Assembly (NCBI GenBank): GCA_034667465.1
Contig: JAXDJV010000010.1
Coordinates: forward strand, 6,874 to 70,873
Length of the DNA stretch: 64,000 nt
Direction of reading: 5' to 3'
Source of the DNA: Acidobacteriota bacterium
GTDB lineage: Bacteria > Acidobacteriota > Thermoanaerobaculia > Gp7-AA8
In this document: positions 4,314 to 48,424 of the stretch, one piece after another
How the letters are laid out: every line of letters starts with the position of its first letter
Numbering within the stretch: position 1 is the first letter of the stretch
Program-made: the position numbers and the translations under genes
The notes under the pieces: model-generated
The model's input: the letters and a program-made list of their open reading frames with translations, nothing else
The model's database searches: none
What the model was told of the DNA's origin: nothing

Positions 4314-4952
4314 ATGGGACAGGCAACACGATCGCTCGAGCGCGCCCTGCTCGAGAGATTGAGCGTCGGTGACTGCGACGCGTTCTGGAGTCTGTGGATG
4401 CTGCACCGTCCGCATCTGCATGCGGTTTGTTACCGCCAGATGCAGTGGGTCGTCGCTGACGCCGACGACGCGGTCAGCCGCTCGATGCTCCTCGCGCACG
4501 CGAAGCTGCCGGAGTATGCGATGGAGATCGTCGACGTCGAAGCGTGGCTGACACGCCTGACGTGCAACGTCTGTCTCGACATCAAGAAAGAGCGCGGCCG
4601 CGGCGTGCGAAAAGCGGAATCGCTCGACGAACAGTCGCTGACGCGGCGCGAAGCGACGCTCCCGGAGCCGCTCTCGCCGGAGGATGCGTGCGTCTCGACG
4701 CAGATGCGCGAATCGATTGCCGGCGCGATCGGACGACTGCCCGAGCCGCTGCGCATCGTGGCGCTGATGCGTTTCGTCCAGGAAGCGTCGTATACGGCCA
4801 TCGCCGAAAAGCTCACCATCAGCGAAGCGAACGCGCGCAAGCGCGTGCAGCAGGCGCGGACGATGCTGCGTCCGCAACTCGTTCACCTGCGCGGCGACGA
4901 GCTACGCGTCACTGCGCCTGGAGCACGAGGAACTGCGGATTGCTCGCCCTGA
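4314..4952 (+). CDS. ECF-type sigma-70 factor
   Basis: Region 2 (DADDAV...AWLTRLTCNVCLD) and region 4 (LPEPLRIVALMRFVQEASYTAIAEKLTISEANARKRVQQAR). Start moved to ATG 4314 because GGAGG lies at 4301. Confidence 0.88.
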   Translation: MGQATRSLERALLERLSVGDCDAFWSLWMLHRPHLHAVCYRQMQWVVADADDAVSRSMLLAHAKLPEYAMEIVDVEAWLTRLTCNVCLDIKKERGRGVRKAESLDEQSLTRREATLPEPLSPEDACVSTQMRESIAGAIGRLPEPLRIVALMRFVQEASYTAIAEKLTISEANARKRVQQARTMLRPQLVHLRGDELRVTAPGARGTADCSP

Positions 4953-6948: not shown

Positions 6949-8433
6949 ATGTCCAGCGCCACCGTAGTTGCCGTACTCGATGCTCGCCCGACGGGCGAGT
7001 TGATCGCGACCGTCGCCCGAAACGCGGGCTGGCTCGAAGTCCGAGCCGATCTCCTCGGCGATCTCGACGCTTCCTGGCTTCGCTCGCACTTCCCCGGCGC
7101 GCTGCTCTATTCATTGCGCAGCCAAGCCGAGGGCGGGGCGGCGGAAGGTGACGCCAGCCGCCGCGCGCGACTCATCGCCGCCGCCCGCGACTACGACTTC
7201 ATCGATCTGGAGCTCGGCGATCTCGTTCCCGCCGTGCTGAAAGCAATCCCGCCGTCAAAGCGGATCATTTCCTCGCGCCGCTCCACGCCCGAGCTCGCCC
7301 ATCTCGGCGACCGGCTGCGCGTCATGACGTCGGTCGAAGCGCACCTCTATCGCATCTCCGCCATCGCAAAGCGCAGCGGCGATGAGCTCGCGCCACTGCA
7401 GCTCCTCAAAGAAACGGGACGCACCGACGTCACCGCGTACGCGACCGGTCCGATCGGCCTCTGGTCGCGCATCGTGGCGCCGTGGCTCGGCGCGCCGATC
7501 GTCTTCGGCCGCGTTGGCGACGACGACACCGCGGAAGGGTTGCCGTCGATCGATCGCCTCGTCGGCAGCTTCGGTTTTCCCGATCTCCCCGAAATCGATG
7601 AGCTGTTCGGCATGGTCGGTGCGCCGGTCATGCATTCGCACTCGCCGCGCATCCACAACACCGCGTTCCGCGCCACCGGCCGCAACGCGCTGTACGTCCC
7701 GTTTCACGTCGACGAGTTCTCCGACTTCTGGTCGCGCGTGATCAGCAACGGCGCGCTGGAGTCGCTCGGATTTTCGATCAACGCGCTCTCCGTCGTCTCG
7801 CCGCACAAAGCGATCGCGCTCGGCGCGGCACGCTCGAAGAGTCCCGTCGTCCGGCGTGCCGGCTCGACGAACTTCTTTCGACGCGGCGCCGACGGCGAAT
7901 GGGTCGCGGAGACGACCGACGCCGAGGGCGTGATACTCACGCTGCGCGAACGTGGCATTCCATGCGCGAAACAGCGTGTGGCCGTCATCGGCTGCGGCGG
8001 CTCCGGCCGCGCGATGGCGGCAGCGCTCGATCAGGCAGGCGCCGATGTCACGCTGGTCAATCGCGGTCTCGAGCGCGCGTCGCTCGCCGTGCGACTGCTT
8101 CGTCTGCCGTTCATGCCGCTCAACTCGTTTTCCGGCGACGGATTCTCGATTGTCGTCAATGCGACGCCGGTCGGACGCGACAGCGACGAGATCTCGTTTC
8201 CGATCGAAAGCCTCAAGCGCGACGCCACGATCGTCGATCTCGTCTATCGCGACACGCCGACGCAGCTCATGACCCGCACGCGCGGTCCCGGACGAATCAC
8301 CATCGACGGCTGGGACATGCTCATCACGCAGGCGCTCGAACAGTTTCGATTGATGACCGGCGACGAAATGCCGGAAGGACTGGCACGCCAAACCCTCGGT
8401 CTCGAACCGGCCGAGTTGATTGCCGAATGCTGA
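6949..8433 (+). CDS. AroD-AroE-like fusion (type I dehydroquinase-like domain + shikimate dehydrogenase)
   Basis: N-domain LEVRAD, SLRSQAEGG, FIDLE; C-domain HSHSPRIHN, SPHK, TTDAEG, IGCGGSG, VNATPVG, DLVY, ML..QA. Confidence 0.88.
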   Translation: MSSATVVAVLDARPTGELIATVARNAGWLEVRADLLGDLDASWLRSHFPGALLYSLRSQAEGGAAEGDASRRARLIAAARDYDFIDLELGDLVPAVLKAIPPSKRIISSRRSTPELAHLGDRLRVMTSVEAHLYRISAIAKRSGDELAPLQLLKETGRTDVTAYATGPIGLWSRIVAPWLGAPIVFGRVGDDDTAEGLPSIDRLVGSFGFPDLPEIDELFGMVGAPVMHSHSPRIHNTAFRATGRNALYVPFHVDEFSDFWSRVISNGALESLGFSINALSVVSPHKAIALGAARSKSPVVRRAGSTNFFRRGADGEWVAETTDAEGVILTLRERGIPCAKQRVAVIGCGGSGRAMAAALDQAGADVTLVNRGLERASLAVRLLRLPFMPLNSFSGDGFSIVVNATPVGRDSDEISFPIESLKRDATIVDLVYRDTPTQLMTRTRGPGRITIDGWDMLITQALEQFRLMTGDEMPEGLARQTLGLEPAELIAEC

Positions 8434-8448
8434 CCGGAGGAAGACGGA

Positions 8449-8871
8449 ATGGGTGAGCCACAACAGTCGCGACGAAGCGTCGAGCAGATGCCGATGGACG
8501 CTCCGCCGCCGCGCATCGAAGCCGAGGCGATGGACGGCCGCTGGTACAAGACCAGCGACAAACCGCAGTGGATCGAGCGACTCGAGCTCGACACCGCCGG
8601 CGACGCGACGTACGTACACATTTTCGGCGGCGCCTCGCCGTCGCCGGCCGACTGGGGCCGCGTTCGCATTCAGTGGCCGTATGCCAGCGCGTCGAACACG
8701 TCGAGCGCGAAGGCGGGCGGATTCGTCGCGCAGTACGACTTCGACGAGATGTCGGTCGAGGTCCAGGCGAACTACAACCTCGGCCTCCTCGTCGTGGCGA
8801 CCTTCGTCACCTTCAAACAACCGGGCGCGCTCTCCGACCGCTTCACCCGCGAGTTCTTCTTCCGCGCGTGA
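8449..8871 (+). CDS. Small hypothetical beta-rich protein (paralog 1)
   Basis: 140 aa; shares G.W, (D/E)W..V, QAN...G.LVVA.F and REFF.R motifs with the next ORF. Confidence 0.8.
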   Translation: MGEPQQSRRSVEQMPMDAPPPRIEAEAMDGRWYKTSDKPQWIERLELDTAGDATYVHIFGGASPSPADWGRVRIQWPYASASNTSSAKAGGFVAQYDFDEMSVEVQANYNLGLLVVATFVTFKQPGALSDRFTREFFFRA

Positions 8872-8890
8872 TCTCGATGAGGAATCGATC

Positions 8891-9283
8891 ATGACCGCAG
8901 CTGCCGAAACCGCCGCACTCGCACTCGACGCCGCAGTGCTCGCCGGCGAATGGATCAACACGAATGCCGAAGCCGGCATCGCCCGCATCGTCTGCACCTC
9001 GCAACCGGACGGCACGATGCGCGTTCGCGCAACGGGGCGCACCGCCGGCGGCGAAATGGAAGAGTGGGACGAAGTCGACGCGCCGCTCTACTCGTTTACC
9101 TTTGAATCGCGTCAGGCCGGCGCCTTCAGCGCCGTCTTCGACCTCGGCTACGAAGAAGTGCGCATGCAGGCCAACGTGAAAGCGGGCGTCCTCGTCGTCG
9201 CCAGCTTCAATCGCTTCAAGGACGACAGCGGCCGCTCGAACTACTTCGACCGCGAGTTCTTCCACAGGATCTCGAAGGGATGA
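8891..9283 (+). CDS. Small hypothetical beta-rich protein (paralog 2)
   Basis: C-terminal part of track ORF 8420..9283, start at ATG 8891; GEWINTN...QANVKAGVLVVASF...REFFHR; stop overlaps the next ATG. Confidence 0.8.
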   Translation: MTAAAETAALALDAAVLAGEWINTNAEAGIARIVCTSQPDGTMRVRATGRTAGGEMEEWDEVDAPLYSFTFESRQAGAFSAVFDLGYEEVRMQANVKAGVLVVASFNRFKDDSGRSNYFDREFFHRISKG

Positions 9284-10512
9284 CCGTCGCGGTGGAAAGC
9301 GGCGAGCGGACGTTCGCCGATACGTATCTGGGCGACTCGCAGCGCGAGCTCGTCCATCGGACGGCGCGTCTCGCGCAGGAGCGGCTCGCGCCGCGCGCCG
9401 CGCACTACGACCGCACCGCTACGTTTCCACTCGAAGACTTCGATGACATTTTCGCCGCCGGCCTTCACGCGCCGACGGTGCCGCGCGAGCACGGCGGACT
9501 CGGACTCGGCCCGTATCGCGGCGACGTCTTCACGCTCTGGATGATGACGAAGGAGATCGCGAAAGCCGATCTCTCGCTCGCCCGCTGCTGGGAAGGTCAC
9601 GCGAACTCGCTCGTGCTGCTCGACGGCATGGCCACGCCGCAACAGAAAGCGCGCTGGTTCGAAGGAATCGTCGCACGCGGCGAGAAGTGGGTGGCGTGGA
9701 GCGGCGAGCCGCAATCGCGCGCGCCCGGCGACACGCAGAGTTTCGGCACGAGCGTCGAGCGCGTCGAAGGCGGTTACGTCATCGACGGGAAGAAAGCGTT
9801 TTGCACGAGCGCCGGCGGCGCGCGCTGGGCGCTGCTGCTCGTCAACACGGCCGGTCCCGGCGGTGCGCGTCACGCGACGGCTGACGCAGCTGCGACGCTG
9901 TTACTCATCGCGTGCGATCTCGACGACCCATCGATCGGCTTCGACGGCTCGTGGTGGGATCCGATCGGAATGCGTTCGACCGTCAGCCACGTCGCGATCT
10001 TCGATCGGACGTTCATCCCTGAAGAGAATCTCGTCGGTGAGCCGGGCCAGTATCTCCGCGAAGGATGGCAGACCTGTTTCGTGCCGCACTACGCGGCGGC
10101 GTTTCTCGGCGCGGCAGAAGCGGCGTACGACTACGCGCTCGCGCACATCCGTTCGCAAAACAAAGGGGACGATCCGTACGTCCAGCATCACGTCGCGAAG
10201 ATGGCGATGAACGTCGAGACCGCGCATCTCTGGCTGAAGCACGTCGCCGGATTGTGGGAACGCGGCGCGTACGGCGAAGCGCAGGTGGCGGGCAGCCGCG
10301 CGCGGCATCTCGTCGAGCATCTCGCGGTCGAGACCGTCGACCATTGCATCCGCGCGTGCGGCGCGCGTGCACTCAACCGGCCCAGCCCGATGGAACGCGT
10401 CCTTCGCGATCTCGCCATCTACGTGCGGCACGACAACGACGATCAGGTGCTGGCGACGATCGGCAAGTCGATCCTCGGACGCAGTTTCGATTCGTCGTTC
10501 TTCAAGCCCTGA
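9280..10512 (+). CDS. Acyl-CoA dehydrogenase-fold flavoprotein (DszC/SfnG-like monooxygenase possible)
   Basis: ATFPLEDF, IDGKKAFCTSAGG, WWDPIGMRSTVS, GSRAR, MERVLRD motifs of the ACAD fold. Confidence 0.88.
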   Translation: MTVAVESGERTFADTYLGDSQRELVHRTARLAQERLAPRAAHYDRTATFPLEDFDDIFAAGLHAPTVPREHGGLGLGPYRGDVFTLWMMTKEIAKADLSLARCWEGHANSLVLLDGMATPQQKARWFEGIVARGEKWVAWSGEPQSRAPGDTQSFGTSVERVEGGYVIDGKKAFCTSAGGARWALLLVNTAGPGGARHATADAAATLLLIACDLDDPSIGFDGSWWDPIGMRSTVSHVAIFDRTFIPEENLVGEPGQYLREGWQTCFVPHYAAAFLGAAEAAYDYALAHIRSQNKGDDPYVQHHVAKMAMNVETAHLWLKHVAGLWERGAYGEAQVAGSRARHLVEHLAVETVDHCIRACGARALNRPSPMERVLRDLAIYVRHDNDDQVLATIGKSILGRSFDSSFFKP

Positions 10513-10527
10513 GGGAATGGAGACGCC

Positions 10528-11979
10528 ATGTCGAAGCCGGCGCATCGGATCATCTGGGCTTTCGCACTCGGCTACTTCGCGTTCTACGTTCCTTACAGCG
10601 CGATCGTAAAACTGGTCACCGCCGGCGCGCGCAAAGCGAACGGCGTCGGACTGCTGCCGGTCTCGCTGCTGACGACCGTCGTCATGCTGCTGATCATCGT
10701 GACGATGCTCGGCTGGTGGAAGTACGCCGCGTGGCCATCGCGCGCGGTTGTGATCTCCGGCGCCGGCGTGGCGCTCATCATCGCGTCGACGACGCTCGCG
10801 TATACATTCAAAGGGATCTCCGTGATCCTCGCGCTGCTGCTCATGCGCGGCGGCGTCCTGACGATGGCGCCGATCATCGACAGCGTCCTGAAACGACGCG
10901 TCCGCTGGTTCTCGTGGGCCGCGCTCGTGACGAGCCTCATCGCGGTCGGCGTCTCCATCTATCGGACGATCGACCACAGCGTCACCGCGATGGTGCTGCT
11001 TAACCTCGCGGCGTACCTGACCGGCTACGCGCTTCGTTTGCCGTGCATGACGTACGTGGCGAAAGTCGATGATCCCGCGATCACGCGCCGCTACTTCGTC
11101 GGAGAGATTCTCGTCGCCTGCGTGCTCCTGACGATCGTGCCCGCCGTCTTCGCCGTCGGCGGCGTTGGCGCATTGCGCAACGGGTACTTCGATCGCTCGC
11201 TGACGACCGTGATGATCGGTTTCTTCTACGCGTGTCTCTACACCTTCTGCACGCTCATCTATCTCGACCGCCGCGAGAACACGTTCACGATTCCGCTCTT
11301 CTGCGGCTCGAGTCTCCTCGCCGGCATCACAGCGACGTATCTGCTGCATCGGTTCGGCGGTTTCAAGGGCGTGTCGGCCGGCGATCTGACCGGTGCTTCA
11401 ATCATGGTGATCGCGCTGCTGTTCCTTTCGCCGCTGCATCACCTCGACGAATACGTTCGCAACTCGATCCGCCTGGTGCGCGATCCGCGCACGCGCGCCG
11501 AGGTCGTCACGGGAAGCGGTCCGGCCGAAGCGGTCGCGCGTGTGTATCTCTTCGTCTGCAGCGGCAACACCTGCCGCTCGCCGATGGCGGAAGCGATCGC
11601 GAAGGCCGAGAGCGCCGCGCTCGGCGCACGCATTCACATCCGCAGCGCCGGAACGTCGGCGAAAGCAGGCGAGGCGATGACCGCGGAAGCGCGCACGGCG
11701 CTGGAGCTGCTGACGATCAAGCCGCACGACCACGCGTCGCAGCCACTGACGAACGACCTGGTCGACGAAGCGTCGGCGATCTTCTGCATGACGTCGAAGC
11801 ATCGCGATGCGGTTCTGGCGTCGCGTCCGTCGGCGGCCGCGAAGACGTACACGCTGAATCCTGCCGGCGACATCGACGATCCGATCGGCAAACCGCTCGA
11901 CACTTACGTCGATTGTGCGCGCGCGATTCGCGAACACATCCGAGTGCGATTCCGCGAGCTCGGCGCCGGAGTGGCATAA
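10528..11979 (+). CDS. Multi-pass membrane protein (DMT/EamA-like) fused to a low-molecular-weight phosphatase (LMW-PTP/ArsC) domain
   Basis: About 10 hydrophobic segments, then FVCSGNTCRSPMAE (CX5RS P-loop), SAGT and DIDDPIG. Confidence 0.85.
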   Translation: MSKPAHRIIWAFALGYFAFYVPYSAIVKLVTAGARKANGVGLLPVSLLTTVVMLLIIVTMLGWWKYAAWPSRAVVISGAGVALIIASTTLAYTFKGISVILALLLMRGGVLTMAPIIDSVLKRRVRWFSWAALVTSLIAVGVSIYRTIDHSVTAMVLLNLAAYLTGYALRLPCMTYVAKVDDPAITRRYFVGEILVACVLLTIVPAVFAVGGVGALRNGYFDRSLTTVMIGFFYACLYTFCTLIYLDRRENTFTIPLFCGSSLLAGITATYLLHRFGGFKGVSAGDLTGASIMVIALLFLSPLHHLDEYVRNSIRLVRDPRTRAEVVTGSGPAEAVARVYLFVCSGNTCRSPMAEAIAKAESAALGARIHIRSAGTSAKAGEAMTAEARTALELLTIKPHDHASQPLTNDLVDEASAIFCMTSKHRDAVLASRPSAAAKTYTLNPAGDIDDPIGKPLDTYVDCARAIREHIRVRFRELGAGVA

Positions 11980-11982
11980 ACG

Positions 11983-13053
11983 ATGGCGCTCCGCTTTCAC
12001 TGGAGCATGTCGTCAGCCGGCGGAAAGCTTCGCGGCGCGCAGGCTCGCGGAGCGCTGGCCATTCAGTCGCTCGATTCGATGCTGCGATTCGCTCGCCACG
12101 CCGAAGAGTGCGAGATCGAATCGCTGCTGATGGCGTTCGGCTTTCATCGCCCCGATCCCTTCACCGTCGCCGCCGCACTCGGCGCGCTGACGACGCGCAT
12201 CAAGTTCATGGTGGCGATGCGCTCCGGCGTCATGTCGCCGACCTATTTCGTGCAGCAGGTCAACACGGTGGCGATGCTCACCGGCGGCCGCATCTGTCTG
12301 AACATCGTCGCCGGACACACGCCGGACGAGCAGGGTTACTACGGCGATTTTCTCAAGCACGACGAACGCTACGAGCGGACTGACGAGTTCCTCCGCATCT
12401 GCGCCGCGTTCTGGCGCCGCGACGGCGACGTCAACTTCGAAGGACATCACTACCGCGTCGTGAACGGGAAGCTCAATCTCCAGTTCACCGCTCCCGATCG
12501 CAGCGCGCCCGAGATCTACCTCGGCGGCAGTTCCGCGGTCGCCGAACAACAGGCCATCGCGCATGCCGACTGTCTCTGGCGTCTGCCCGACACGCCCGAC
12601 AAACTGCGCGCGCGGACGCTGGAGATCGTCGAGCAGGGGACGGAAGTCGGACTGCTCGTATCGCTGATCGTCCGGCCGACGCACGCGGAAGCCGTTCGCG
12701 CGGCGGAAGCGATCCTCGAAGAGGTCGGACAGCAACCGAAGCGAACGCACGAAGAGTTCGCGCGCCGCTCCGATTCGGTCGCGTTCACGTCGACCTACGC
12801 GCTGGCCGCGCAAAGCGAGTGGCTGACGCCGTATCTCTGGTCGGGCGCCGTGCCGTATCTCGGCGCGCCGGCGATGGCGATCGTCGGATCGCCCGATGAA
12901 GTTGCCAATGCGCTCTTCGATTTTCGCGCCGCCGGCATCACGCAGTTCCTCTTCATGGGCTGGCCGGACATGGAAGAGATGACGAATTTTCATCGCGACG
13001 TCCTGCCGCTCGTGCGGTGCCGCGAGCAGCGCGAAGAGGCGCGTGCGGTATGA
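11983..13053 (+). CDS. Luciferase-like monooxygenase (LLM) family oxidoreductase, SsuD-like
   Basis: ARHAEECEIESLL, KFMVAMRSG, GGRICLNIVAG, HDERYERTDEF, PEIYLGGSS, IVGSPDEVA. Confidence 0.92.
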   Translation: MALRFHWSMSSAGGKLRGAQARGALAIQSLDSMLRFARHAEECEIESLLMAFGFHRPDPFTVAAALGALTTRIKFMVAMRSGVMSPTYFVQQVNTVAMLTGGRICLNIVAGHTPDEQGYYGDFLKHDERYERTDEFLRICAAFWRRDGDVNFEGHHYRVVNGKLNLQFTAPDRSAPEIYLGGSSAVAEQQAIAHADCLWRLPDTPDKLRARTLEIVEQGTEVGLLVSLIVRPTHAEAVRAAEAILEEVGQQPKRTHEEFARRSDSVAFTSTYALAAQSEWLTPYLWSGAVPYLGAPAMAIVGSPDEVANALFDFRAAGITQFLFMGWPDMEEMTNFHRDVLPLVRCREQREEARAV

Positions 13054-13802
13054 ACGGCGTCGTCGATCGCGATCCGTTTCCGCACGTCGTCATCGATCAC
13101 GCGCTCGATGATGATTTGTATCGCGAGCTCGTCGCAACGATGCCGTCGGACGATGAGCTGCTGCGCGGACGCGAGCTCGAAAGCAACATGACCTATCGCA
13201 CGTCCGCGGAGTGGCTGCTGCGCGAAGGGCCGCCGGTCTGGCGCGCGTTCGCGGAAAGACATACGTCGCGTGAGTTCTTCGCGGAGGTCGTGGAGTTGTT
13301 CCGCGACGAGTTGCGAACGTTCGCGGATGCGCGAACGAGCATTCGCTTTGTCGAGCCGTTCGCCGACGTCGCGCTCGACTGTCAGCTGATGTGGGGCTCG
13401 CCGGTGAAGCGCTTGTCGCGTCCGCATCCGGTGCACGTCGATCGCGAATGCGCGCTGTTCGCGGGGCTGCTCTACTTCCGCCGCGATGACGACGATTCGC
13501 GCGGCGGCGATCTCGAGCTCTATCGCTGGCGCGGCGACGCGCGCGCGTACGACGAAGGACGCATCGTTCCGGACAAGCTCGTCGAAAAAGTGAAGACGAT
13601 CGGATACGCCGCGAACCGGCTCGTCCTCTTCCCGCATTCGCCCGACGCGCTGCATGCCGTCTCGCTTCGTTCGCTCACGCCGTACCCGCGCCTCCACGTC
13701 AACTTCCTCGCGGAAACGCAGGAGCCCAATCGTCAGCTGCCACACTCTGCTTCAATGTGGGGGCCGGCGCTCTCGCCGGCCCGCGCCGAGGGCGCCTCAT
13801 GA
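13050..13802 (+). CDS. 2-oxoglutarate/Fe(II)-dependent oxygenase
   Basis: DPFPHVVID N-terminus, HVD (HxD), GGDLELY, NRLVLF, distal LHAV and conserved Arg; start ATG 13050 overlaps the upstream stop. Confidence 0.85.
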   Translation: MNGVVDRDPFPHVVIDHALDDDLYRELVATMPSDDELLRGRELESNMTYRTSAEWLLREGPPVWRAFAERHTSREFFAEVVELFRDELRTFADARTSIRFVEPFADVALDCQLMWGSPVKRLSRPHPVHVDRECALFAGLLYFRRDDDDSRGGDLELYRWRGDARAYDEGRIVPDKLVEKVKTIGYAANRLVLFPHSPDALHAVSLRSLTPYPRLHVNFLAETQEPNRQLPHSASMWGPALSPARAEGAS

Positions 13803-14506
13803 TCGCCATCGACGAAGCCACCGCCGTCATCGTCTGCGCCGGCCCGTCGCTCGAATCGCTTTCCGCGCGCGCCTGGCAACAGCTCGCGAACGCCGGCGCG
13901 ATCGCCGGAGTCAACGGCGCTCCCGCCGCCGATGCGTGCGTTGCGAATGGCGTGAAGTTCACGCTCCTTGCCGCGATGGATGTGCATCGCGGTCTCTTCA
14001 CTCGCGTGCCGCGCCTCGAAAAAATCTGGAACACGACCAGCGCGTGGCGCGTGACGTCCGTCGACGGACCCGACATTCCGGCCGATTCGTACCTCGTCGA
14101 AGTCGATGAAGTCGACGGCGGCGTTTACGGCTGGAGCGACGATCCGAACGAGGGCTACAAAGGCGGCAGCACCGCGATGGTCATAGGCAACTGGCTCGGC
14201 AATCCGTGGCCGGATGGAGACGTTGCATCGCGGCATCCGCGCGGCTTCCGCACGCTCGCGTATGTCGGACTCGACATGCATCGCGACGACGGCCGCCACG
14301 CGCCCGGGGCCGGCCAGCATTCCAGTGGCTTCGCCGATTCGTCCGATCGCTACGCGCGTATCTGCCGCAGCTGGCGATTGTTGTGCGACGAAGCGGCGCG
14401 GCGCGGCATTCGCGTCGTAAACCTGACGCCGGGAACCGCGCTCGCCGAAATGCCGTACGTCGAGGTTCCTGACGAATGGCTCGTGCCGCTGGAGGTCGCG
14501 CGATGA
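13799..14506 (+). CDS. DUF115/Maf-like (CstII sialyltransferase-like fold) protein
   Basis: VIVCAGPSL, GVN, GGSTA and YVGLD motif order typical of this fold. Confidence 0.6.
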   Translation: MIAIDEATAVIVCAGPSLESLSARAWQQLANAGAIAGVNGAPAADACVANGVKFTLLAAMDVHRGLFTRVPRLEKIWNTTSAWRVTSVDGPDIPADSYLVEVDEVDGGVYGWSDDPNEGYKGGSTAMVIGNWLGNPWPDGDVASRHPRGFRTLAYVGLDMHRDDGRHAPGAGQHSSGFADSSDRYARICRSWRLLCDEAARRGIRVVNLTPGTALAEMPYVEVPDEWLVPLEVAR

Positions 14507-15462
14507 GCGGCGACGTCGCCTTCATCGCCTGCATCGAGCGGGGAGAGCTCGAAGAAAAAGCGCTGCTGCTCTGCCGCAGCATCCGCCGCTTCGGCGGTCA
14601 GTACGGCGGCGCGCCGATCTACACCTTCCAGCCGCGCGCAGGCACGACCATCACCGCGAAGACTGCAGCCCGACTCGACGGGCTCGGCGTCCATCACATC
14701 GATGAAGTGCTGAATCGCGACTTCCCGCATTACGCGATCGCGAACAAGATCTTCGCCTCCGCGCGCGCAGAAGAGCTGGTGAGCGAAGAGATCGTGGTGT
14801 TCCTCGATAGTGATTCGCTGATCACATCGGAACCGTCGGATTTTTCGCTTCCGCCGCACATCGACGCGGCCGTTCGTCCCGTCGACATTCATCGCATGCC
14901 CGGCGAACCGGACGATGACGGCGATCCGTTCTGGCGCTCGCACCATCGCCGCATCAGTTCATCCGGCCCCGGCGATCCAATCGACGACTGCTGGCTTCGC
15001 ATGTACGAACTGCTCGGCATCCGGCACGAGCCGTTCGTCGAAACGACCTGCAGCCGCCAGCGCATCCGCTCCTATTTCAATTCCGGACTCATCGCCGTCC
15101 GCCGCTCCGCCGAGCTCTTCACGCAATGGCGCGAGGACTTCCTCGCGCTCTGCGCCGCGAATCTCGTTCCGCGCGGCGGCGAGCTGCACTACATGGATCA
15201 GTTCTCACTCGCCGCGACGCTCACACGCATCTGGCCGCGCGTGCAGATTCTCGATGGCCGCTACAACTATCCGCTGCCCGGCCGCGCCGCGCTCGCTGAG
15301 CCGTTTCGCTCGATGCCGCTCGAAGAGCTCGTGCACGTTCATTACAACCGGTCGCTCCGCATCGCCGATGACCTCGCGACGATTCAGCCGCCGATCGATC
15401 TGCGAGGAAAGGTTGCGCGCTGGCTGGAGCCGCATTTGCCGCTCGTCCTGGAGACCGCATGA
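14503..15462 (+). CDS. GT-A fold glycosyltransferase-like protein (GT8-like)
   Basis: NKIFA, VFLDSD (DxD), YFNSG, MDQ, YNYP, VHVHY pattern. Confidence 0.72.
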   Translation: MSGDVAFIACIERGELEEKALLLCRSIRRFGGQYGGAPIYTFQPRAGTTITAKTAARLDGLGVHHIDEVLNRDFPHYAIANKIFASARAEELVSEEIVVFLDSDSLITSEPSDFSLPPHIDAAVRPVDIHRMPGEPDDDGDPFWRSHHRRISSSGPGDPIDDCWLRMYELLGIRHEPFVETTCSRQRIRSYFNSGLIAVRRSAELFTQWREDFLALCAANLVPRGGELHYMDQFSLAATLTRIWPRVQILDGRYNYPLPGRAALAEPFRSMPLEELVHVHYNRSLRIADDLATIQPPIDLRGKVARWLEPHLPLVLETA

Positions 15463-16223
15463 CACTCTCGAACACGCAACTCGCGCAGATGGCGAGCGAC
15501 GGCTACCTGCTGCTGCCGGCGCTCTTCGACGCCGATGAGGTGGAGCTGCTCCGCGCCGCGGTGCCGGAAGTGATCGTGCGCCGCGGTCCGGAGGTGATCG
15601 GCGAGGACGATGATGCGTCGATGGTGCGGATGATCTTCGCCGCACACGCGTTCAACGAAACGTTCCGCCGCCTGACGCTGCATCCGCGGCTGATCTCGCG
15701 CGTCGAGCAGCTGTTCGGCGAGCCGGCGTATCTCTTTCAGTCGCGCTTCAACGTCAAGTCGAGCTTCCATTCCGCCGGCTGGGCGTGGCACCAGGACTTC
15801 AATCAATGGCATCGGCTCGACGGAATGCAGACGCCGAACGCGATGGCACTCGGCGTGTTCCTCGATGATGTGAATCCGTGCAACGGTCCGGTGATGGTGA
15901 TCCCCGGTTCGCACAAACGCGGTCACATCTTCAATCCCGACGGGATGGAGATTCCGGACGCCGACGTCGCCGCGGCCGCGAACGATCTCGGAATCATCCC
16001 GCTGATGGGACCTCCCGGTTCCGTCGCGCTCTTTCACTCGCTGATCATTCACGGCTCCGCGCCGAACGTCTCGCCGTGGCCGCGCCGCATCTTCTACATG
16101 AACCTCAGCCCGATCTCGAACCGCTCGCTGAGCCCGAAGCGCGAGTGGTTTCACTGCGACCCCGACGGTCCCGCGCTCGTGCCGCTGTCGGATGATTGTC
16201 TGCGTCAGAAGGTGCCGGCATGA
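15459..16223 (+). CDS. Phytanoyl-CoA dioxygenase family Fe(II)/2OG hydroxylase (EctD/proline hydroxylase-like)
   Basis: WAWHQDFNQWH..DGM, NGPVMVIPGSH, GSVALFHS..IHGSAPN..PRR. Confidence 0.9.
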   Translation: MTLSNTQLAQMASDGYLLLPALFDADEVELLRAAVPEVIVRRGPEVIGEDDDASMVRMIFAAHAFNETFRRLTLHPRLISRVEQLFGEPAYLFQSRFNVKSSFHSAGWAWHQDFNQWHRLDGMQTPNAMALGVFLDDVNPCNGPVMVIPGSHKRGHIFNPDGMEIPDADVAAAANDLGIIPLMGPPGSVALFHSLIIHGSAPNVSPWPRRIFYMNLSPISNRSLSPKREWFHCDPDGPALVPLSDDCLRQKVPA

Positions 16224-17539
16224 CGGCAATCGATTCGGCCGCACAACTCGCCATCGACGGCGGCACGCCGATCCGTTCCCGTCCGTTCGCACCTAACTGT
16301 CACATCGGCGGCCGCGAGCGCGAGCTGCTGCTCGACGCGCTCGAAAGCTGCAACTGGTCCGGCTTCCGCGCCGGCGCCGGCGCGAACGTTCTCGAGCTCT
16401 GCGCGACACCATCAGCAATCGCACGCGATCTCAACGACGTGCGTTACCTCGGTGGCCGCTACGTCCGGATGCTCGAGGCGATGTTCGCCGCGCGCGCGCA
16501 GACGACGTTCGCGATCGCCTGCAACTCCGCGACGTCCGGACTCGTGATGGCGTTCGGCGCGATCGGTCTCGAGCCGGGCGATGAAGTGCTCGTGCCGTGC
16601 ATGTCGTTTCACGCGACGGCGACGGCGATCCTCGCGTTTCAGGCGGTGCCGGTGTTCGTCGAGGTCGATCCGCATTCGTTCTGCATCGATCCGCGCGCCG
16701 CCGCGCTGAAGATCACGCCACGCACACGCGCGATCGTCGCCGTCCATCTCGGCGGCGTGCCGGCCGACATGCATGCGATCGTCGACCTTGCACGGCAGCA
16801 TCGCCTGAAGGTGATCGAGGACTGCGCGCAATCGCTCGGCGCACGCATCGACGGCGTCGAGGTCGGCGCCATCGGCGACGCCGGCGTCTACTCGCTGACC
16901 GAAACGAAGAGCATTACCTGTGGCGAAGGAGGCGTCGTCGTCACGAACGACGTGCGCATCGCCACGAAGTGCCGCTTGATCCGCAATCATGGAGAAGGGG
17001 CGGCCGGCGAATCGTGGAGCGATGACGAGCTGGCGAACGTCGTCGGGATGAACTTCCGATTGACGGAACTGCAGGCGGCGGTAGCAGTCGCGCAGTTCGA
17101 GCAACTCGACGATCGCAACGAAGTGCGCAACGAAAACGCGAACGCGCTCATCGAAGGTCTGTCGCAGTTCCCGCAATTCATCCCGCAGCAGCTTGCCGCG
17201 AATGCGGAGCGCGCCTGCTACATGCCGAAGTTTCGTTACGTCGCCGGTCCGTCGATGCCGTCGCGCGATGAGCTCGTGCGCATCCTCGCCGCGGAAGGGA
17301 TCCCGCTCGTCGCCGGCTATCCGCGCCTGCTGCACGAGAATCCGATCTTCTCGCGGCGGATCGCGTACGGCACCGGCGGCGCGCCGTTCCGCGATTCGGT
17401 CGCGCGCTACGGAACGGGAACGTGTCCGCGATCGGAAGCGCTGAATCGCGAGCTGCTCTGGTTTCCGTTCGTCAATCCGCCGAATACGATCGATGACATG
17501 CGCGACGTCGTGCGCGCAATCGAGAAGGTGTTCTCATGA
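16220..17539 (+). CDS. DegT/DnrJ/EryC1/StrS PLP-dependent aminotransferase
   Basis: NSATSGL, GDEV, AVHLGG, IEDCAQS, SLTETKSITCGEGG (PLP Lys), NFRLTELQAAV. Confidence 0.93.
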   Translation: MTAIDSAAQLAIDGGTPIRSRPFAPNCHIGGRERELLLDALESCNWSGFRAGAGANVLELCATPSAIARDLNDVRYLGGRYVRMLEAMFAARAQTTFAIACNSATSGLVMAFGAIGLEPGDEVLVPCMSFHATATAILAFQAVPVFVEVDPHSFCIDPRAAALKITPRTRAIVAVHLGGVPADMHAIVDLARQHRLKVIEDCAQSLGARIDGVEVGAIGDAGVYSLTETKSITCGEGGVVVTNDVRIATKCRLIRNHGEGAAGESWSDDELANVVGMNFRLTELQAAVAVAQFEQLDDRNEVRNENANALIEGLSQFPQFIPQQLAANAERACYMPKFRYVAGPSMPSRDELVRILAAEGIPLVAGYPRLLHENPIFSRRIAYGTGGAPFRDSVARYGTGTCPRSEALNRELLWFPFVNPPNTIDDMRDVVRAIEKVFS

Positions 17540-18270
17540 CCGCGTTCGCGCAGGACGGCGTCCGCTTTCCGATCCGCGTCCTGAGCGACGAGGAGTTGCG
17601 CGCCGCGCAGCAAAATTACGCACGCATCACCGCGACGTACGACGAGCCGCTGAAGCGCTTCGACCGCTCGCATCTCTATTTTCGATGGGCGTACGAGCTC
17701 GCGCGCCATCCGCGTGTCGTCGATGAAGTGGTGTCGCTGATCGGCGACGACGTGATCGTCTGGGGAACGCTGATCCTCTCCAAGCCGCCGCACGATCCGA
17801 GCTTCGTCGCATGGCATCAGGACGGCGCCTACGCCGGCTTCCTGGGCGACGCGCCGAGCGTCTCCGCCTGGATCGCGCTGAGCGACAGCACCATCGAAAG
17901 CGGCTGCATGCGCGTCGTCCCCGGATCGCAAAAGCGGAAGCTCGAGCACGCCGAAACAAACAAGCCGCTGAACATGCTCAATCACGGCCACGAGATCGCG
18001 GTGGAAGTCGACGAAGCGGATGCGGTCGATGTGCAATTGCGAGCGGGCGAGATGTCGCTGCATCACGTCGACATCATTCATGGCAGCAACGCCAATCGCT
18101 CCGACTGGACCCGCACCGGATTCATCGTCCGCTACACGACGCCGGCCATGCTCCGCTCCGTGACGCCGGTCATCGTCGCGCGCGGCCGCGACGTGACGCA
18201 CCTCGAAGTCCACCGCCACCCGCCGCCCGCGGACTTCGAGGAATCGATGGCCGCGTACCGCGCGCGCTGA
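17536..18270 (+). CDS. Phytanoyl-CoA dioxygenase family protein
   Basis: VAWHQD, SAWIAL, GCMRVVPGS, LRAGEMSLHH..IIHGSNAN.S.WTR. Confidence 0.9.
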   Translation: MTAFAQDGVRFPIRVLSDEELRAAQQNYARITATYDEPLKRFDRSHLYFRWAYELARHPRVVDEVVSLIGDDVIVWGTLILSKPPHDPSFVAWHQDGAYAGFLGDAPSVSAWIALSDSTIESGCMRVVPGSQKRKLEHAETNKPLNMLNHGHEIAVEVDEADAVDVQLRAGEMSLHHVDIIHGSNANRSDWTRTGFIVRYTTPAMLRSVTPVIVARGRDVTHLEVHRHPPPADFEESMAAYRAR

Positions 18271-27721: not shown

Positions 27722-27744
27722 GCGGGATTCCTCCATCTGACTAA

Positions 27745-28597: not shown

Positions 28598-28608
28598 GGA
28601 GGTAAGTC

Positions 28609-29040
28609 ATGGGTGGCAAGACCAATGGTGGCGGTGGTGGTGGCGGCGATGTCGTCGTAATCACCGTCAGCCGCGCATGCGCCAAAGAGTTCCTGACCGC
28701 GATCACGATCGCCCTCGGCTCGAAACCGATCAAGAAGATCACCAAGGGCAAGAAGGGTAAAGGCGGAAAGGGCGGCGGCAAGTCGACCGGCGGCGGCGGA
28801 AAAACGACGACGGGCGGCAAGACGACGACCGGCGGCGGGAAGACGACGACGGGCGGCGGAAAAACCACGACCGGTGGCGGAAAGACCACGACCGGTGGCG
28901 GCACGACGACGGGTGGCGGCAAGACGACGACGGGTGGCGGCAAGCCTCCGAGCGGCGGCAAGACGACCACGGGCGGCGGGACGACCACGACCGGCGGCGG
29001 CAAGTCGACCACCGGCGGCGCCAAAACCGCTAAGCGGTAA
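28609..29040 (+). CDS. Gly/Lys/Thr tandem-repeat peptide (putative modified precursor)
   Basis: AGGAGGT RBS at 28597-28603; short helical N-terminal segment, then about 10 GG(G)K/TTT-type repeats. Confidence 0.75.
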   Translation: MGGKTNGGGGGGGDVVVITVSRACAKEFLTAITIALGSKPIKKITKGKKGKGGKGGGKSTGGGGKTTTGGKTTTGGGKTTTGGGKTTTGGGKTTTGGGTTTGGGKTTTGGGKPPSGGKTTTGGGTTTTGGGKSTTGGAKTAKR

Positions 29041-29049
29041 CGCCTTCGC

Positions 29050-34293: not shown

Positions 34294-34297
34294 TCGC

Positions 34298-43057: not shown

Positions 43058-43059
43058 CG

Positions 43060-44639: not shown

Positions 44640-44640
44640 G

Positions 44641-45327: not shown

Positions 45328-45337
45328 GTCGGGCCGA

Positions 45338-48418: not shown

Positions 48419-48424
48419 GCGGGA

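What the first reader, a model, noticed from the sequence alone, without database searches (positions are those of the whole stretch)
6949..18270. Eleven-gene oxidative tailoring operon with no PKS, NRPS, terpene or RiPP backbone gene
Seen: genes with overlapping or near-adjacent stops and starts: AroDE-like, two small paralogs, ACAD-fold flavoprotein, membrane-phosphatase fusion, LLM, 2OG oxygenase, Maf-like, GT8-like, PhyH, DegT aminotransferase, PhyH. Inference: the scaffold may be a shikimate/quinate-type cyclitol that is oxidised and transaminated to an aminocyclitol, then glycosylated and exported. Alternatively the enzymes act in trans on a product encoded elsewhere in the window.
Basis: partly seen in the sequence, partly recalled or inferred. 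Interest (0 to 1): 0.68.

Follow-up and report, generated by a model that had tools for sequence, protein, structure and literature searches.

The report
Backbone-less oxidative operon on conserved core
A real 12-gene operon from a soil Acidobacterium, with no PKS, NRPS or peptide scaffold gene, is a lineage-specific extension of an uncharacterised gene system found in several phyla, built around a flavoenzyme and a transporter fused to a phosphatase; its product is unknown.

Summary
The operon is real. It has twelve genes, not eleven, all on the + strand at 6949-18270, with gaps of -4 to +19 bp. Most family calls hold: SDH fusion, two small paralogs, ACAD fold, membrane-phosphatase fusion, LLM, two PhyH and DegT. 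'Maf-like' and 'GT8-like' rest on motifs only.

New details:
- The dehydroquinase half of G1 has lost its catalytic His and Lys here.
- The small paralogs are calycin beta-barrels.
- G5 is a DMT (NST/TPT-like) transporter fused to a YwlE-type phosphatase.
- G4 and G6 lack the catalytic residues of acyl-CoA dehydrogenases and SsuD.

Synteny in 88 related loci:
- The full set recurs only in about six Thermoanaerobaculia-like genomes.
- The G4+G5 core recurs in 42 loci across Acidobacteriota, Bacteroidota, Cyanobacteria, Planctomycetota and one alphaproteobacterial genome bin.
- It usually travels with G1, the calycin pair, SsuD-like LLMs, PhyH, glycosyltransferases and periplasmic copper proteins.
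- It never travels with a PKS, NRPS or conserved precursor peptide.
- Two full-set loci lack G1, which weakens the AroE+DegT aminocyclitol idea.

Best reading: a scaffold-from-primary-metabolism pathway that builds, dephosphorylates and exports a small molecule of unknown structure.

The parts
6949..8433 (+). G1: fusion of a type-I dehydroquinase-like TIM barrel with a shikimate-dehydrogenase-family NADP(H) oxidoreductase (494 aa).
   Evidence: Pfam and NCBIfam; Arabidopsis DHQ-SDH (2GPT), E=7e-44. SDH residues S257, S259, K314, N335, D351 and Q488 and the GCGGxGRA / NRGxER motifs are invariant in 28 homologs. The dehydroquinase catalytic His and Lys are Arg and Arg here and vary in the family (His 10/28, Lys 16/28).
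8449..8871 (+). G2: small calycin-type beta-barrel protein (140 aa), paralog of G3.
   Evidence: paralogy. Found as a tandem pair in at least 16 related loci. No Pfam hit.
8891..9283 (+). G3: small calycin-type 8-stranded beta-barrel (130 aa). No signal peptide was seen on reading the sequence.
   Evidence: AlphaFold model pLDDT 89.9. Foldseek: avidin, lipocalin and FABP folds, with best TM 0.6-0.7 to bradavidin2 and wilavidin, and all E>1e-3. GxW near the N-terminus and Arg in the last strand are conserved. All 120 listed homologs are 'hypothetical'.
9280..10512 (+). G4: ACAD-fold flavoprotein (410 aa), the most conserved gene of the system.
   Evidence: Pfam. It is 54-87% identical across phyla, and 118 of 410 positions are at least 97% conserved in 36 homologs. 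The MCAD Glu376 position is an Asp inside an invariant YvrHDNdD motif. It scores far below every NCBIfam equivalog cut-off.
10528..11979 (+). G5: 10-TM DMT-fold transporter (residues about 1-318) fused to a cytoplasmic YwlE-type LMW phosphatase (residues about 338-480).
   Evidence: Model pLDDT 84. Foldseek: YwlE TM 0.92; SLC35B1 TM 0.71; triose-phosphate/phosphate translocator TM 0.66. Best PDB match by sequence is YwlE, and the P-loop is CSGNTCRS; the DDP motif is conserved. At least 1992 relatives at 90% clustering and at least 573 hits among GTDB species genomes.
11983..13053 (+). G6: SsuD-family luciferase-like flavin monooxygenase (356 aa) without the SsuD catalytic pair.
   Evidence: Pfam E=6e-44. 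MsuD/SsuD are the best PDB matches, and the alignment puts Leu and Ser where SsuD has Arg226 and His228. 171 bits against a TIGR03565 cut-off of 518.
13050..13802 (+). G7: probable Fe(II)/2-oxoglutarate oxygenase (250 aa).
   Evidence: 2OG-FeII_Oxy_3, E=0.0013, below threshold. H129-x-D131...H202 is invariant in 6 homologs.
13799..14506 (+). G8: Acidobacteria-restricted protein of unknown fold (235 aa); possibly a remote MptE/Maf (DUF115)-like nucleotide-dependent transferase or kinase.
   Evidence: 80 homologs, none with a Pfam domain. PF01973 E=0.22. hhalign not significant. Motif colinearity with the MptE-like gene of L030 is by eye only.
14503..15462 (+). G9: unknown protein (319 aa) with an invariant hydrophobic-DSD motif; possibly a GT-A-type transferase.
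   Evidence: No significant Pfam or PDB match. Invariant D102-S103-D104.
15459..16223 (+). G10: PhyH-family Fe(II)/2OG dioxygenase (254 aa), nearest to ectoine hydroxylase.
   Evidence: PF05721 E=3e-31. TIGR02408 E=2e-38, but 133 bits against a cut-off of 336. An HxD motif (WHQD) is present in the sequence.
16220..17539 (+). G11: DegT/DnrJ/EryC1-family PLP aminotransferase (439 aa).
   Evidence: PF01041 E=2e-89. PDB matches are spread over perosamine synthases, 2-deoxy-scyllo-inosose aminotransferases, the Kdo8N transaminase and AHBA synthase.
17536..18270 (+). G12: PhyH-family Fe(II)/2OG dioxygenase (244 aa). It has HxD, so it reads as a hydroxylase type rather than a halogenase.
   Evidence: PF05721 E=4e-28. 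The motif AWHQDG is read from the sequence.
4909..6720 (-). Linked gene: divergent beta-propeller protein (YNCE/cytochrome-D1-like) with a YtkA/FixH-like C-terminal region.
   Evidence: Pfam. A homolog lies directly upstream of the core in 11 loci, and inside the operon in Aureisphaera L030.
4314..4952 (+). Linked gene: ECF-type sigma factor.
   Evidence: Pfam. Homologs flank the core in 7 loci.
39724..45964 (-). Linked second operon: unknown-domain/RidA fusion, two SsuD-like LLMs, PhyH, SAM methyltransferase and two unknown proteins.
   Evidence: Pfam. Homologs of its RidA, unknown-254-aa, LLM, methyltransferase and PhyH genes abut the 12-gene operon in L085/L007, and homologs lie near the core in 9-23 loci.
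27818..33045 (.). Linked genes: GT2 (+), 143-aa ORF (+), 662-aa unknown protein (+), GT32-like (-), GT4 (-).
   Evidence: JGI calls with Pfam. GT32-like homologs are next to the core in 17 loci, GT4 in 24, and the 662-aa family in about 8.
33134..35497 (+). Linked genes: two SCO1/SenC proteins and a cytochrome c fused to a type-I periplasmic-binding-protein domain.
   Evidence: Homologs sit in one operon with the core in Aureisphaera L030 and near it in 10-11 loci.
21956..27736 (-). Possibly linked: 1926-aa lipoprotein-like protein with a weak multicopper-oxidase domain.
   Evidence: Cu-oxidase_3 E=2e-6. The N-terminus looks like a signal peptide with a lipobox. Homologs are near the core in L008, L043 and L058. 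Ordinary multicopper oxidases are near the core in Calothrix, and in the second context of the DMT family.

Best explanation
The operon is a lineage-specific, tailoring-rich version of a widespread, uncharacterised pathway. That pathway builds a small polar molecule from a primary metabolite without any PKS, NRPS, terpene or RiPP scaffold enzyme, and then exports it.

Shown:
- The near-universal core is the ACAD-fold flavoprotein G4 plus G5, a DMT (nucleotide-sugar / triose-phosphate-transporter-like) permease carrying a cytoplasmic YwlE-type phosphatase with intact catalytic motifs.
- G1 (an NADP-dependent dehydrogenase of the shikimate-dehydrogenase family with a degenerate dehydroquinase-like domain) and the calycin pair G2/G3 are frequent partners.
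- SsuD-like LLMs, PhyH dioxygenases and glycosyltransferases are variable decorations. An FMN reductase accompanies the LLMs in some other genomes.

Inferred mechanism:
- G1 and G4 oxidise or desaturate a carbocyclic or sugar-acid-like precursor. SDH-type alcohol/ketone chemistry would be followed by flavin-dependent dehydrogenation or oxygenation using the invariant Asp of the HDNDD motif.
- G2/G3 hold the intermediate.
- G6, G7, G10 and G12 hydroxylate it.
- G11 aminates a keto group made on the scaffold.
- G8 and G9 transfer a nucleotide-activated group.
- The phosphatase domain of G5 removes a phosphate carried by the last intermediate, and the DMT domain moves the product across the inner membrane.
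- There it probably meets the co-conserved periplasmic copper and cytochrome c proteins.

The chemical identity of the product is not established.
For: - Operon structure and family assignments.
- Core conservation: G4+G5 together in 42 of 88 loci from Acidobacteriota, Bacteroidota (Aureisphaera, Chitinophagales), Cyanobacteria (Calothrix), Planctomycetota and an alphaproteobacterial genome bin. G4 is 54-87% identical throughout.
- No scaffold genes in any locus. The small ORFs downstream of G12 are not conserved.
- G5 fold and intact phosphatase motifs.
- G1: SDH residues are invariant, while the dehydroquinase catalytic residues are not.
- Anabolic partners (glycosyltransferases, methyltransferase, sulfotransferases, DegT) sit in the same operons.
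- An FMN reductase lies next to the LLMs in L030, L038 and L086, which supports two-component flavin monooxygenases.
- SCO1, cytochrome c-PBP and the beta-propeller are co-operonic with the core in L030 and flank it in 10-11 loci.
Against: - No enzyme here is assigned a substrate. Every NCBIfam equivalog score is far below its cut-off.
- G1 is absent from two full-set loci (L003, L087), and Calothrix has an SDR gene instead, so the starting chemistry is uncertain.
- ACAD-fold + SsuD-like LLM + FMN reductase is also the classic make-up of catabolic organosulfur oxidation (Dsz, Sfn, Msu).
- DMT/TPT-type carriers can import as well as export, so the direction of transport is inferred.
- No RNA data were found.
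- No literature on this gene set was found, so nothing experimental anchors the model.
Confidence: 0.45

Rival explanations
1. Catabolic or scavenging system. The DMT-phosphatase imports and dephosphorylates an environmental organic compound, for example an organosulfur or phosphorylated plant or soil metabolite. The ACAD-fold enzyme, SsuD-like LLMs, PhyH/2OG dioxygenases, RidA and DegT then strip heteroatoms from it, by analogy with Dsz, Sfn/Msu and sulfoquinovose-monooxygenase pathways.
For: - G4's best NCBIfam hits are SfnB and 3-sulfinopropanoyl-CoA desulfinase, and its PDB hits include methanesulfinate monooxygenase and DszC.
- G6 and the two LLMs at 40.9-43.1 kb are SsuD-family proteins.
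- An SsuE/MsuE-type FMN reductase sits beside them in L030, L038 and L086.
- A TauD gene is present in L086.
- A periplasmic-binding-protein domain is linked to the system.
Against: - By the alignment and my reading of the sequences, the SsuD residues Arg226 and His228 are Leu/Ser in G6 and Arg/Cys and Ser/Cys in the other two LLMs.
- All scores are far below the equivalog cut-offs.
- Glycosyltransferases, a methyltransferase, sulfotransferases and a sugar-type aminotransferase are embedded in the same operons.
- No ABC importer or TonB-dependent receptor is conserved with the core.
- G4's extreme conservation fits one fixed substrate, not a broad scavenging range.
Confidence: 0.17
2. Cell-envelope glycoconjugate pathway. 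The enzymes make and decorate an unusual sugar or cyclitol unit that cytoplasmic glycosyltransferases build into a glycolipid or surface glycan. G5 plays the part of a nucleotide-sugar-type carrier with an attached phosphatase, as nucleotide-sugar transporters and phosphatases cooperate in the Golgi.
For: - GT4, GT32-like, Glyco_trans_1_2 and a strong GINT1_N match (E=1e-62 to 9e-67) lie immediately downstream of the core in Pyrinomonadaceae, Aureisphaera and Angelobacter.
- G5's best membrane-domain match is SLC35B1, of the nucleotide-sugar transporter family.
- G11 resembles PseC, LegC and perosamine-type sugar aminotransferases.
Against: - No Wzx/Wzy, ABC-type O-antigen exporter, initiating phosphoglycosyl transferase, nucleotidyltransferase or NDP-sugar 4,6-dehydratase was seen in the window or in the loci whose neighbours were annotated.
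- The glycosyltransferases are predicted to be soluble and cytoplasmic.
- The calycin pair, ACAD-fold enzyme and LLM set is atypical for glycan loci.
Confidence: 0.15
3. G1 oxidises shikimate, quinate or an inositol to a ketone. G11 transaminates it to an aminocyclitol, which is then hydroxylated, glycosylated and exported.
For: - The SDH catalytic and substrate residues are invariant, and the dehydroquinase-like domain keeps its substrate-binding Glu/Arg/Arg.
- G11 is about as close to 2-deoxy-scyllo-inosose and scyllo-inositol aminotransferases and to AHBA synthase as to NDP-sugar enzymes.
- No in-cluster NDP-sugar dehydratase exists to supply a keto-sugar, so the keto group must arise on the pathway scaffold.
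Against: - L003 and L087 keep G2-G12 without G1 at the locus.
- G11 is present in only about 6 of 42 core loci.
- The dehydroquinase catalytic residues are lost here.
- There is no cyclase or inositol-phosphate synthase.
- By my reading of the alignment, the residues that bind the shikimate carboxylate in E. coli AroE (Asn59, Thr61) are changed (SVVSPHK against NVTVPFK); this is an inference.
Confidence: 0.12
4. The enzymes tailor, in trans, a scaffold encoded elsewhere in the window, such as the Cys/Thr-rich protein of the lanthipeptide-like cluster at 46.6-54.5 kb.
For: A class-V-lanthipeptide-like enzyme set and a 597-aa Cys/Thr/Pro-rich protein lie 28 kb downstream. PhyH, LLM and methyltransferase enzymes do occur in some RiPP pathways (own knowledge).
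Against: None of the genes at 46.6-52.7 kb has a homolog in any of the 80 genome loci searched, which include 40 core loci. The operon is conserved without them. No conserved small ORF accompanies the operon.
Confidence: 0.03

Closest known systems
Bifunctional 3-dehydroquinate dehydratase / shikimate dehydrogenase (plant DHQ-SDH, PDB 2GPT; bacterial AroDE fusions)
   Same: Same two-domain architecture. The SDH catalytic Lys and Asp, the Ser-x-Ser, Asn and Gln substrate residues, and the NADP-type Rossmann motifs are all kept.
   Different: The dehydratase catalytic His and Schiff-base Lys are Arg and Arg in this window and vary across the family. NCBIfam AroE and AroDE scores are far below the cut-offs. 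The gene sits in a non-aromatic-amino-acid operon and can be missing, with an SDR gene at the locus in Calothrix.
Two-component flavin systems of organosulfur oxidation (DszC/DszA/DszD; SfnB/MsuC with SfnG/MsuD/SsuD and SsuE/MsuE)
   Same: Same trio of folds: an ACAD-fold flavoenzyme, SsuD-family LLMs and, in other genomes, an NADPH-FMN reductase in one operon.
   Different: The SsuD Arg226/His228 pair is not kept. G4 forms a separate, very tight family with an invariant HDNDD motif. The system is embedded among glycosyltransferases, methyltransferases, an aminotransferase and a transporter-phosphatase. No FMN reductase was found in this window.
YwlE-type LMW phosphatases, and transporter-LMW-PTP fusions such as the Acr3-ArsC fusion (own knowledge: M. 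tuberculosis Rv2643)
   Same: The C-terminal domain superposes on YwlE (TM 0.92) and has the CxGNTCRS P-loop and the DP general-acid motif. The logic of a cytoplasmic LMW-PTP-fold enzyme feeding a fused permease is the same.
   Different: The membrane part has a DMT/NST-TPT fold, not Acr3. The ArsC-type redox cysteines are absent, by my reading of the sequence against pI258 ArsC recalled from memory. The substrate is unknown.
Backbone-less saccharide/cyclitol clusters (aminoglycoside, mycothiol and glycoside compatible-solute logic: glycosyltransferase acting on a phosphorylated acceptor, then a phosphatase)
   Same: No thiotemplate scaffold. There is a dehydrogenase plus a DegT aminotransferase, glycosyltransferases, a dedicated phosphatase and an exporter.
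   Different: No sugar-phosphate cyclase, inositol-phosphate synthase or nucleotidyltransferase. The ACAD-fold core, calycin pair, SsuD-like LLMs and linked copper proteins have no counterpart in those pathways.

Membership tests
Bifunctional AroDE (dehydroquinase I + shikimate dehydrogenase) | Type-I dehydroquinase catalytic His and Schiff-base Lys | tested here: not met
   In the alignment to 2GPT, Arg lies at both positions. In 28 homologs, His is kept in 10 and Lys in 16.
Bifunctional AroDE (dehydroquinase I + shikimate dehydrogenase) | SDH catalytic Lys/Asp dyad, Ser-x-Ser, Asn and Gln substrate residues, and an NADP Rossmann motif | tested here: met
   S257, S259, K314, N335, D351, Q488, GCGGxGRA and NRGxER are invariant.
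Bifunctional AroDE (dehydroquinase I + shikimate dehydrogenase) | Score above the curated equivalog cut-off | tested here: not met
   TIGR00507: 150 bits against 200. NF006802: 110 bits against 598.
Acyl-CoA dehydrogenase (true ACAD) | Three-domain ACAD fold | tested here: met
   PF02771, PF02770, PF00441 and PF08028 all hit.
Acyl-CoA dehydrogenase (true ACAD) | Catalytic Glu at the MCAD Glu376 position | tested here: not met
   The alignment to MCAD 4P13 puts Asp of the invariant HDNDD motif there.
SsuD/MsuD alkanesulfonate monooxygenase | Catalytic Arg226 and His228 (residue roles from own knowledge of SsuD) | tested here: not met
   The alignments to 7JV3 and 1NQK show Leu and Ser. 171 bits against a cut-off of 518.
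LMW-PTP, YwlE subgroup | C-x5-R-S P-loop, Asp general acid, Thr in the P-loop, and the LMW-PTP fold | tested here: met
   CSGNTCRS and DDP are conserved. YwlE is the best match by sequence (E=3e-19) and by fold (TM 0.92). Activity on phospho-arginine or any other substrate was not tested.
DMT superfamily (NST/TPT-like carriers) | Ten-TM fold superposable on solved NST/TPT structures | tested here: met
   Predicted model against 9I20 (SLC35B1), TM 0.71, and 5Y78 (TPT), TM 0.66. There is no Pfam sequence match, so this is fold-level membership only.
DegT/DnrJ/EryC1 aminotransferases | Family HMM above cut-off, and the PLP-binding Lys | tested here: met
   PF01041: 300 bits against 19.8. A Lys in SLTETK is read from the sequence. 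Substrate class is unresolved.
PhyH Fe(II)/2OG dioxygenases (G10, G12) | Family HMM above cut-off, and an HxD/E metal motif rather than the HxA/G of halogenases | tested here: met
   110 and 100 bits against 22. WHQD is present in both sequences.
Maf / MptE-like (PF01973, DUF115), for G8 | Significant match to the family profile or to a family member | tested here: not met
   E=0.22. hhalign probability 0.1-0.2. 0 of 80 homologs are annotated. Only by-eye motif colinearity supports it.
GT8 glycosyltransferases, for G9 | Significant match to PF01501 or to a solved GT8 structure | tested here: not met
   Best E=0.27 in 1 of 7 homologs. The PDB profile search was empty. A DxD-like DSD motif is present.
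PKS / NRPS / RiPP biosynthetic clusters | Ketosynthase or adenylation/condensation domains, or a conserved precursor peptide at the locus | tested here: not met
   No DTACSS or SGTTGxPKG motif in the window or in 41 loci. The seven largest ORFs in related loci that were scanned are kinases, an RHS-repeat protein, an FtsX permease or have no hit. The 79- and 60-aa ORFs after G12 are not conserved. Terpene synthases were not screened in a dedicated way; none appears among the Pfam hits obtained.
Aminocyclitol (2-deoxystreptamine / scyllo-inosamine) pathways | Sugar-phosphate cyclase or inositol-phosphate synthase that supplies the carbocycle | tested here: not met
   None among the Pfam-annotated genes of the window or of L030, L038, L081 and L085-L088.

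The most novel reading that the evidence does not exclude
The ACAD-fold enzyme + DMT-phosphatase core, with the calycin pair, SsuD-like LLMs and glycosyltransferases, defines a previously undescribed, multi-phylum pathway for an exported small molecule. That molecule would work together with periplasmic copper and cytochrome c proteins (SCO1, a YtkA-like beta-propeller, a cytochrome c fused to a binding-protein domain, and multicopper oxidases). It could be a new kind of redox mediator, a laccase substrate or a copper-binding metabolite in soil Acidobacteriota.

Support: the co-operonic arrangement in Aureisphaera, and the recurrence of multicopper oxidases next to this DMT family in two otherwise different gene contexts.
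Probability: 0.15. Interest if true: 0.8.

Novelty: new variant of a known kind. Interest (0 to 1): 0.55.

Why it matters
Acidobacteriota are among the most abundant and least understood soil bacteria. Genome mining of them is dominated by PKS and NRPS detection, which cannot see this locus.

The analysis turns one odd operon into a defined gene system:
- It has a near-universal two-gene core.
- It is present in at least 42 sampled loci from five phyla, including cultured carriers (Aureisphaera galaxeae NBRC 110018, Calothrix sp. CCY 0018).
- That makes its product and role directly testable.

It also describes a widespread fusion of a nucleotide-sugar/triose-phosphate-type carrier with a YwlE-type phosphatase, for which my literature searches found no description. 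It shows, too, that ACAD-fold and SsuD-family proteins are used here without the catalytic residues of their name-giving enzymes. If the link to periplasmic copper proteins is functional, it would point to an unrecognised extracytoplasmic small-molecule/copper process in soil bacteria.

Tried and rejected
- RiPP precursor. The 79-aa and 60-aa ORFs just after G12 occur only in near-identical contigs. Rejected.
- Link to the lanthipeptide-like cluster in the window. No co-occurrence. Rejected.
- G5 as an arsenate reductase fusion. The ArsC-type Cys82/Cys89 equivalents are absent, and YwlE is the best match (residue comparison from my memory of pI258 ArsC). Rejected.
- CxxxCxxC in the LLMs as an Fe-S site. 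It lies in the strand that aligns with SsuD 'GIRLHVIV', so it is a barrel strand and not a cluster motif. Rejected.
- G8 as homolog of the MptE-like gene of L030. hhalign was not significant, with either a 5- or a 31-sequence profile.
- Profile searches of G8 and G9 against the PDB found nothing.
- The roughly 700-aa unknown proteins downstream of the core in Pyrinomonadaceae and in this window turned out not to be homologous to each other.
- Promoter and terminator scans were uninformative.
- No RNA runs were found.
- Five literature searches for this gene combination found nothing relevant; a sixth query was rejected for a syntax error.
- Two context look-ups failed because my start codons differed from the deposited gene calls.

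Full report
**Source and layout**

The window is part of an 838-kb contig from a JGI soil metagenome (3300044704, Ga0467057_0000003). Near-identical sequence is found only in soil and rhizosphere metagenomes. The closest relatives of its proteins are in Thermoanaerobaculia and other Acidobacteriota genome bins.

Twelve ATG-started genes lie head to tail on the + strand between 6949 and 18270. The gaps are +15, +19, -4, +15, +3 and then six 4-bp overlaps. This is an operon by any ordinary criterion.

**What each gene is**

- **G1 (6949-8433)** has the dehydroquinase-I and shikimate-dehydrogenase domains. Arabidopsis DHQ-SDH is its best solved relative.
  - In that alignment the dehydratase catalytic His and the Schiff-base Lys are both Arg. 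Among 28 homologs taken from related loci, His is kept in 10 and Lys in 16.
  - The SDH Lys/Asp dyad, the Ser-x-Ser, Asn and Gln substrate residues and the NADP motifs are invariant.
  - G1 is therefore an SDH-family NADP(H) oxidoreductase with a dehydroquinase-like domain. That domain keeps the binding residues (Glu57, Arg59, Arg84) but, in this lineage, not the catalytic ones.
- **G2 and G3** are paralogs. They always occur as a tandem pair and have no Pfam family. All listed homologs are annotated as hypothetical.
  - A confident model (pLDDT 90) is an eight-stranded up-and-down barrel of the calycin type: avidin, lipocalin or FABP.
  - I saw no signal peptide.
- **G4** has the full ACAD fold but is equally distant from all characterised members.
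  - The position of the MCAD catalytic Glu is an Asp inside an invariant HDNDD motif.
  - G4 is the most conserved protein of the system, at 54-87% identity across phyla.
- **G5** was modelled at pLDDT 84.
  - Its C-terminal domain superposes on the arginine phosphatase YwlE (TM 0.92) and carries CSGNTCRS and the DP acid motif.
  - Its ten-helix N-terminal part matches SLC35B1 (TM 0.71) and the plastid triose-phosphate/phosphate translocator (TM 0.66), so it has a DMT fold of the nucleotide-sugar/TPT type.
- **G6** is an SsuD-family LLM, but Leu and Ser replace SsuD Arg226 and His228.
- **G7** has only a sub-threshold 2OG-oxygenase hit but an invariant HxD...H triad.
- **G10 and G12** are clear PhyH dioxygenases with HxD motifs. 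**G11** is a clear DegT aminotransferase. Its solved relatives include NDP-sugar, inosose and Kdo8N transaminases and AHBA synthase at similar scores.
- **G8 and G9** have no significant match to anything. GLDM for G8, and a hydrophobic-DSD for G9. They are plausible but untested.

**Synteny**

A profile of G5 relatives retrieved 80 loci from one-genome-per-species bacterial and archaeal contigs. At least 573 stretches encoded a relative. Eight more loci came from exact-protein look-ups. I scored 31 gene families across these loci with tblastn.

Three results matter.

1. *The complete G2-G12 set* recurs in L003, L004, L007/L085 and L087, and partly in L001 and L054 on short contigs. All are Thermoanaerobaculia-like or unclassified Acidobacteriota, at 48-87% identity, so the operon is under selection as a unit. 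It is, however, lineage-restricted.

2. *G4+G5 occur together in 42 loci.* These span Acidobacteriota classes, Aureisphaera galaxeae (Flavobacteriia), a Chitinophagales bin, Calothrix, a Planctomycetota bin and an alphaproteobacterial bin.
   - G1 joins them in 31 loci and the calycin pair in 20.
   - SsuD-like LLMs join in 27, PhyH in 23 and GT4 in 24.
   - A GINT1_N-type beta-propeller joins in 20, and a GT32-like gene in 17.

3. *Two full-set loci (L003, L087) have no G1.* Calothrix has an SDR gene at the locus and no G1.

Aureisphaera is the clearest case. It has one 15-gene operon, in this order:
- an unknown protein;
- a beta-propeller with a YtkA-like region;
- fused SCO1 domains;
- a cytochrome c/binding-protein fusion;
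- G1, the calycin pair, G4 and G5;
- an MptE-like protein;
- two LLMs;
- GT4;
- a GINT1_N protein;
- an FMN reductase.

**The rest of the window**

Families that sit beside the core in other genomes are scattered through this window:
- the divergent beta-propeller gene and an ECF sigma factor just upstream;
- GT2, a 662-aa unknown, GT32-like and GT4 at 27.8-33.0 kb;
- two SCO1 genes and the cytochrome c fusion at 33.1-35.5 kb;
- a second operon at 39.7-45.9 kb: an unknown-domain/RidA fusion, two LLMs, PhyH, a methyltransferase and two unknowns.

In L085, homologs of its RidA, unknown-254-aa, LLM, methyltransferase and PhyH genes directly abut the 12-gene operon.

**No scaffold gene**

- No ketosynthase or adenylation signature occurs in the window or in 41 related loci.
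- The seven largest ORFs in those loci that were scanned with Pfam are Ser/Thr kinases, an RHS-repeat protein, an FtsX permease, or relatives of the window's 1926-aa lipoprotein, which had no Pfam hit in that scan.
- The two small ORFs after G12 are not conserved.
- The window does contain a class-V-lanthipeptide-like enzyme set with a striking 597-aa Cys/Thr/Pro-rich protein at 46.6-54.5 kb. None of its genes co-occurs with the core elsewhere.

**Interpretation**

*Shown:*
- an operon of oxidoreductases and transferases;
- a conserved G4+G5 core;
- an intact phosphatase active site on a DMT carrier;
- anabolic partner genes;
- the absence of any scaffold synthase.

*Inferred:* the precursor comes from primary metabolism and is oxidised by G1 and/or G4. 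The calycins bind an intermediate. The LLM, 2OG and PhyH enzymes hydroxylate it, and G11 aminates a pathway-generated ketone. G8 and G9 add activated groups. A phosphorylated last intermediate is dephosphorylated and exported by G5.

The recurring SCO1, YtkA-like, cytochrome c and multicopper-oxidase neighbours suggest that the product acts in the periplasm with copper enzymes. This link recurs in a second gene context of the same DMT family, which carries opine dehydrogenase, arginase, a flavoprotein, a glyoxalase-fold protein and a multicopper oxidase.

I put 0.45 on the general biosynthesis-and-export model.

*Main rivals:*
- A catabolic or scavenging role, suggested by the Dsz/Sfn/Msu-like trio of folds. 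It is weakened by the missing SsuD catalytic residues and the embedded glycosyltransferases and methyltransferase.
- An envelope glycoconjugate pathway, suggested by the glycosyltransferases and the NST-like fold. It is weakened by the lack of any polymer export or priming machinery.
It remains chemically possible in this window, but it cannot be the conserved logic, because G1 and G11 are each dispensable in related loci.

**Novelty**

Every domain belongs to a known superfamily, and backbone-less saccharide/cyclitol-type clusters are a known kind. What appears undescribed is the conserved combination, the DMT-YwlE fusion, and the tight G4 family. Literature searches returned nothing relevant. 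I rate it a new variant of a known kind, of moderate interest, with a more novel copper-linked reading not excluded.

Noticed in passing
window 46625-59006 (+): A class-V-lanthipeptide-like enzyme set: an APH-type kinase (48425-49525), a HopA1-like protein (49518-50525) and a LanC-like protein (50522-51787). It is preceded by a 597-aa protein (46625-48418) with 53 Cys, 64 Thr and 85 Pro. Fifty-one of the Cys lie after residue 130, and there are 11 CP[TS] motifs. It is followed by an acyltransferase, a radical SAM enzyme and ABC/peptidase-M1 genes. The 597-aa protein looks like a giant candidate substrate for lanthionine-type crosslinking. The set is not linked to the operon under study.
   Followed up: partly
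window 20156-21900 (+): An FADH2-dependent halogenase (nearest NCBIfam model CmlS, E=5e-65, far below its cut-off) followed by a 149-aa ORF, after an RDD-family membrane protein (19636-20142). No obvious substrate gene is nearby.
   Followed up: no
window 21956-27736 (-): A 1926-aa protein with a lipoprotein-like signal and only a weak multicopper-oxidase domain hit. Relatives of 1300-1960 aa lie near the ACAD/DMT core in L008, L043 and L058; a 1960-aa ORF flanks the related locus L088.
   Followed up: partly
L013, L035, L036, L040, L045, L049, L052 (around the DMT gene): A second conserved context of the same DMT family, often without the phosphatase domain: opine dehydrogenase, an arginase-family hydrolase, a 650-aa FAD/NAD(P)-binding protein, a glyoxalase-fold protein and a multicopper oxidase. 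This is reminiscent of opine-type metallophore loci with DMT exporters.
   Followed up: partly
L011 15305-16150; L030 15318-16223; L088 8236-9141: Stand-alone bacterial proteins that match the N-terminal domain of plant glucosamine-inositolphosphorylceramide transferase 1 (GINT1_N, E down to 9e-67). They are co-located with GT4 and GT32-like genes and the core. No copy is present in this window.
   Followed up: partly
window 18807-19223 (+): A HigA-like HTH_3 protein, with small non-conserved ORFs (18295-18534, 18573-18755), marks the end of the operon. GC content drops to about 0.62 here.
   Followed up: partly
window 40896-43057 (-) and homologs: The two SsuD-like LLMs of the second operon carry a conserved C-L-R/S-x-C-V/I-V/I-C strand where SsuD has G-I-R-L-H-V-I-V, so His228 is replaced by Cys. 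The meaning is unknown.
   Followed up: partly
window 1426-4158 (-): A 910-aa Ser/Thr kinase with TPR repeats lies next to the ECF sigma factor. Similar kinase genes lie within 10 kb of the core in L026 and L028.
   Followed up: no
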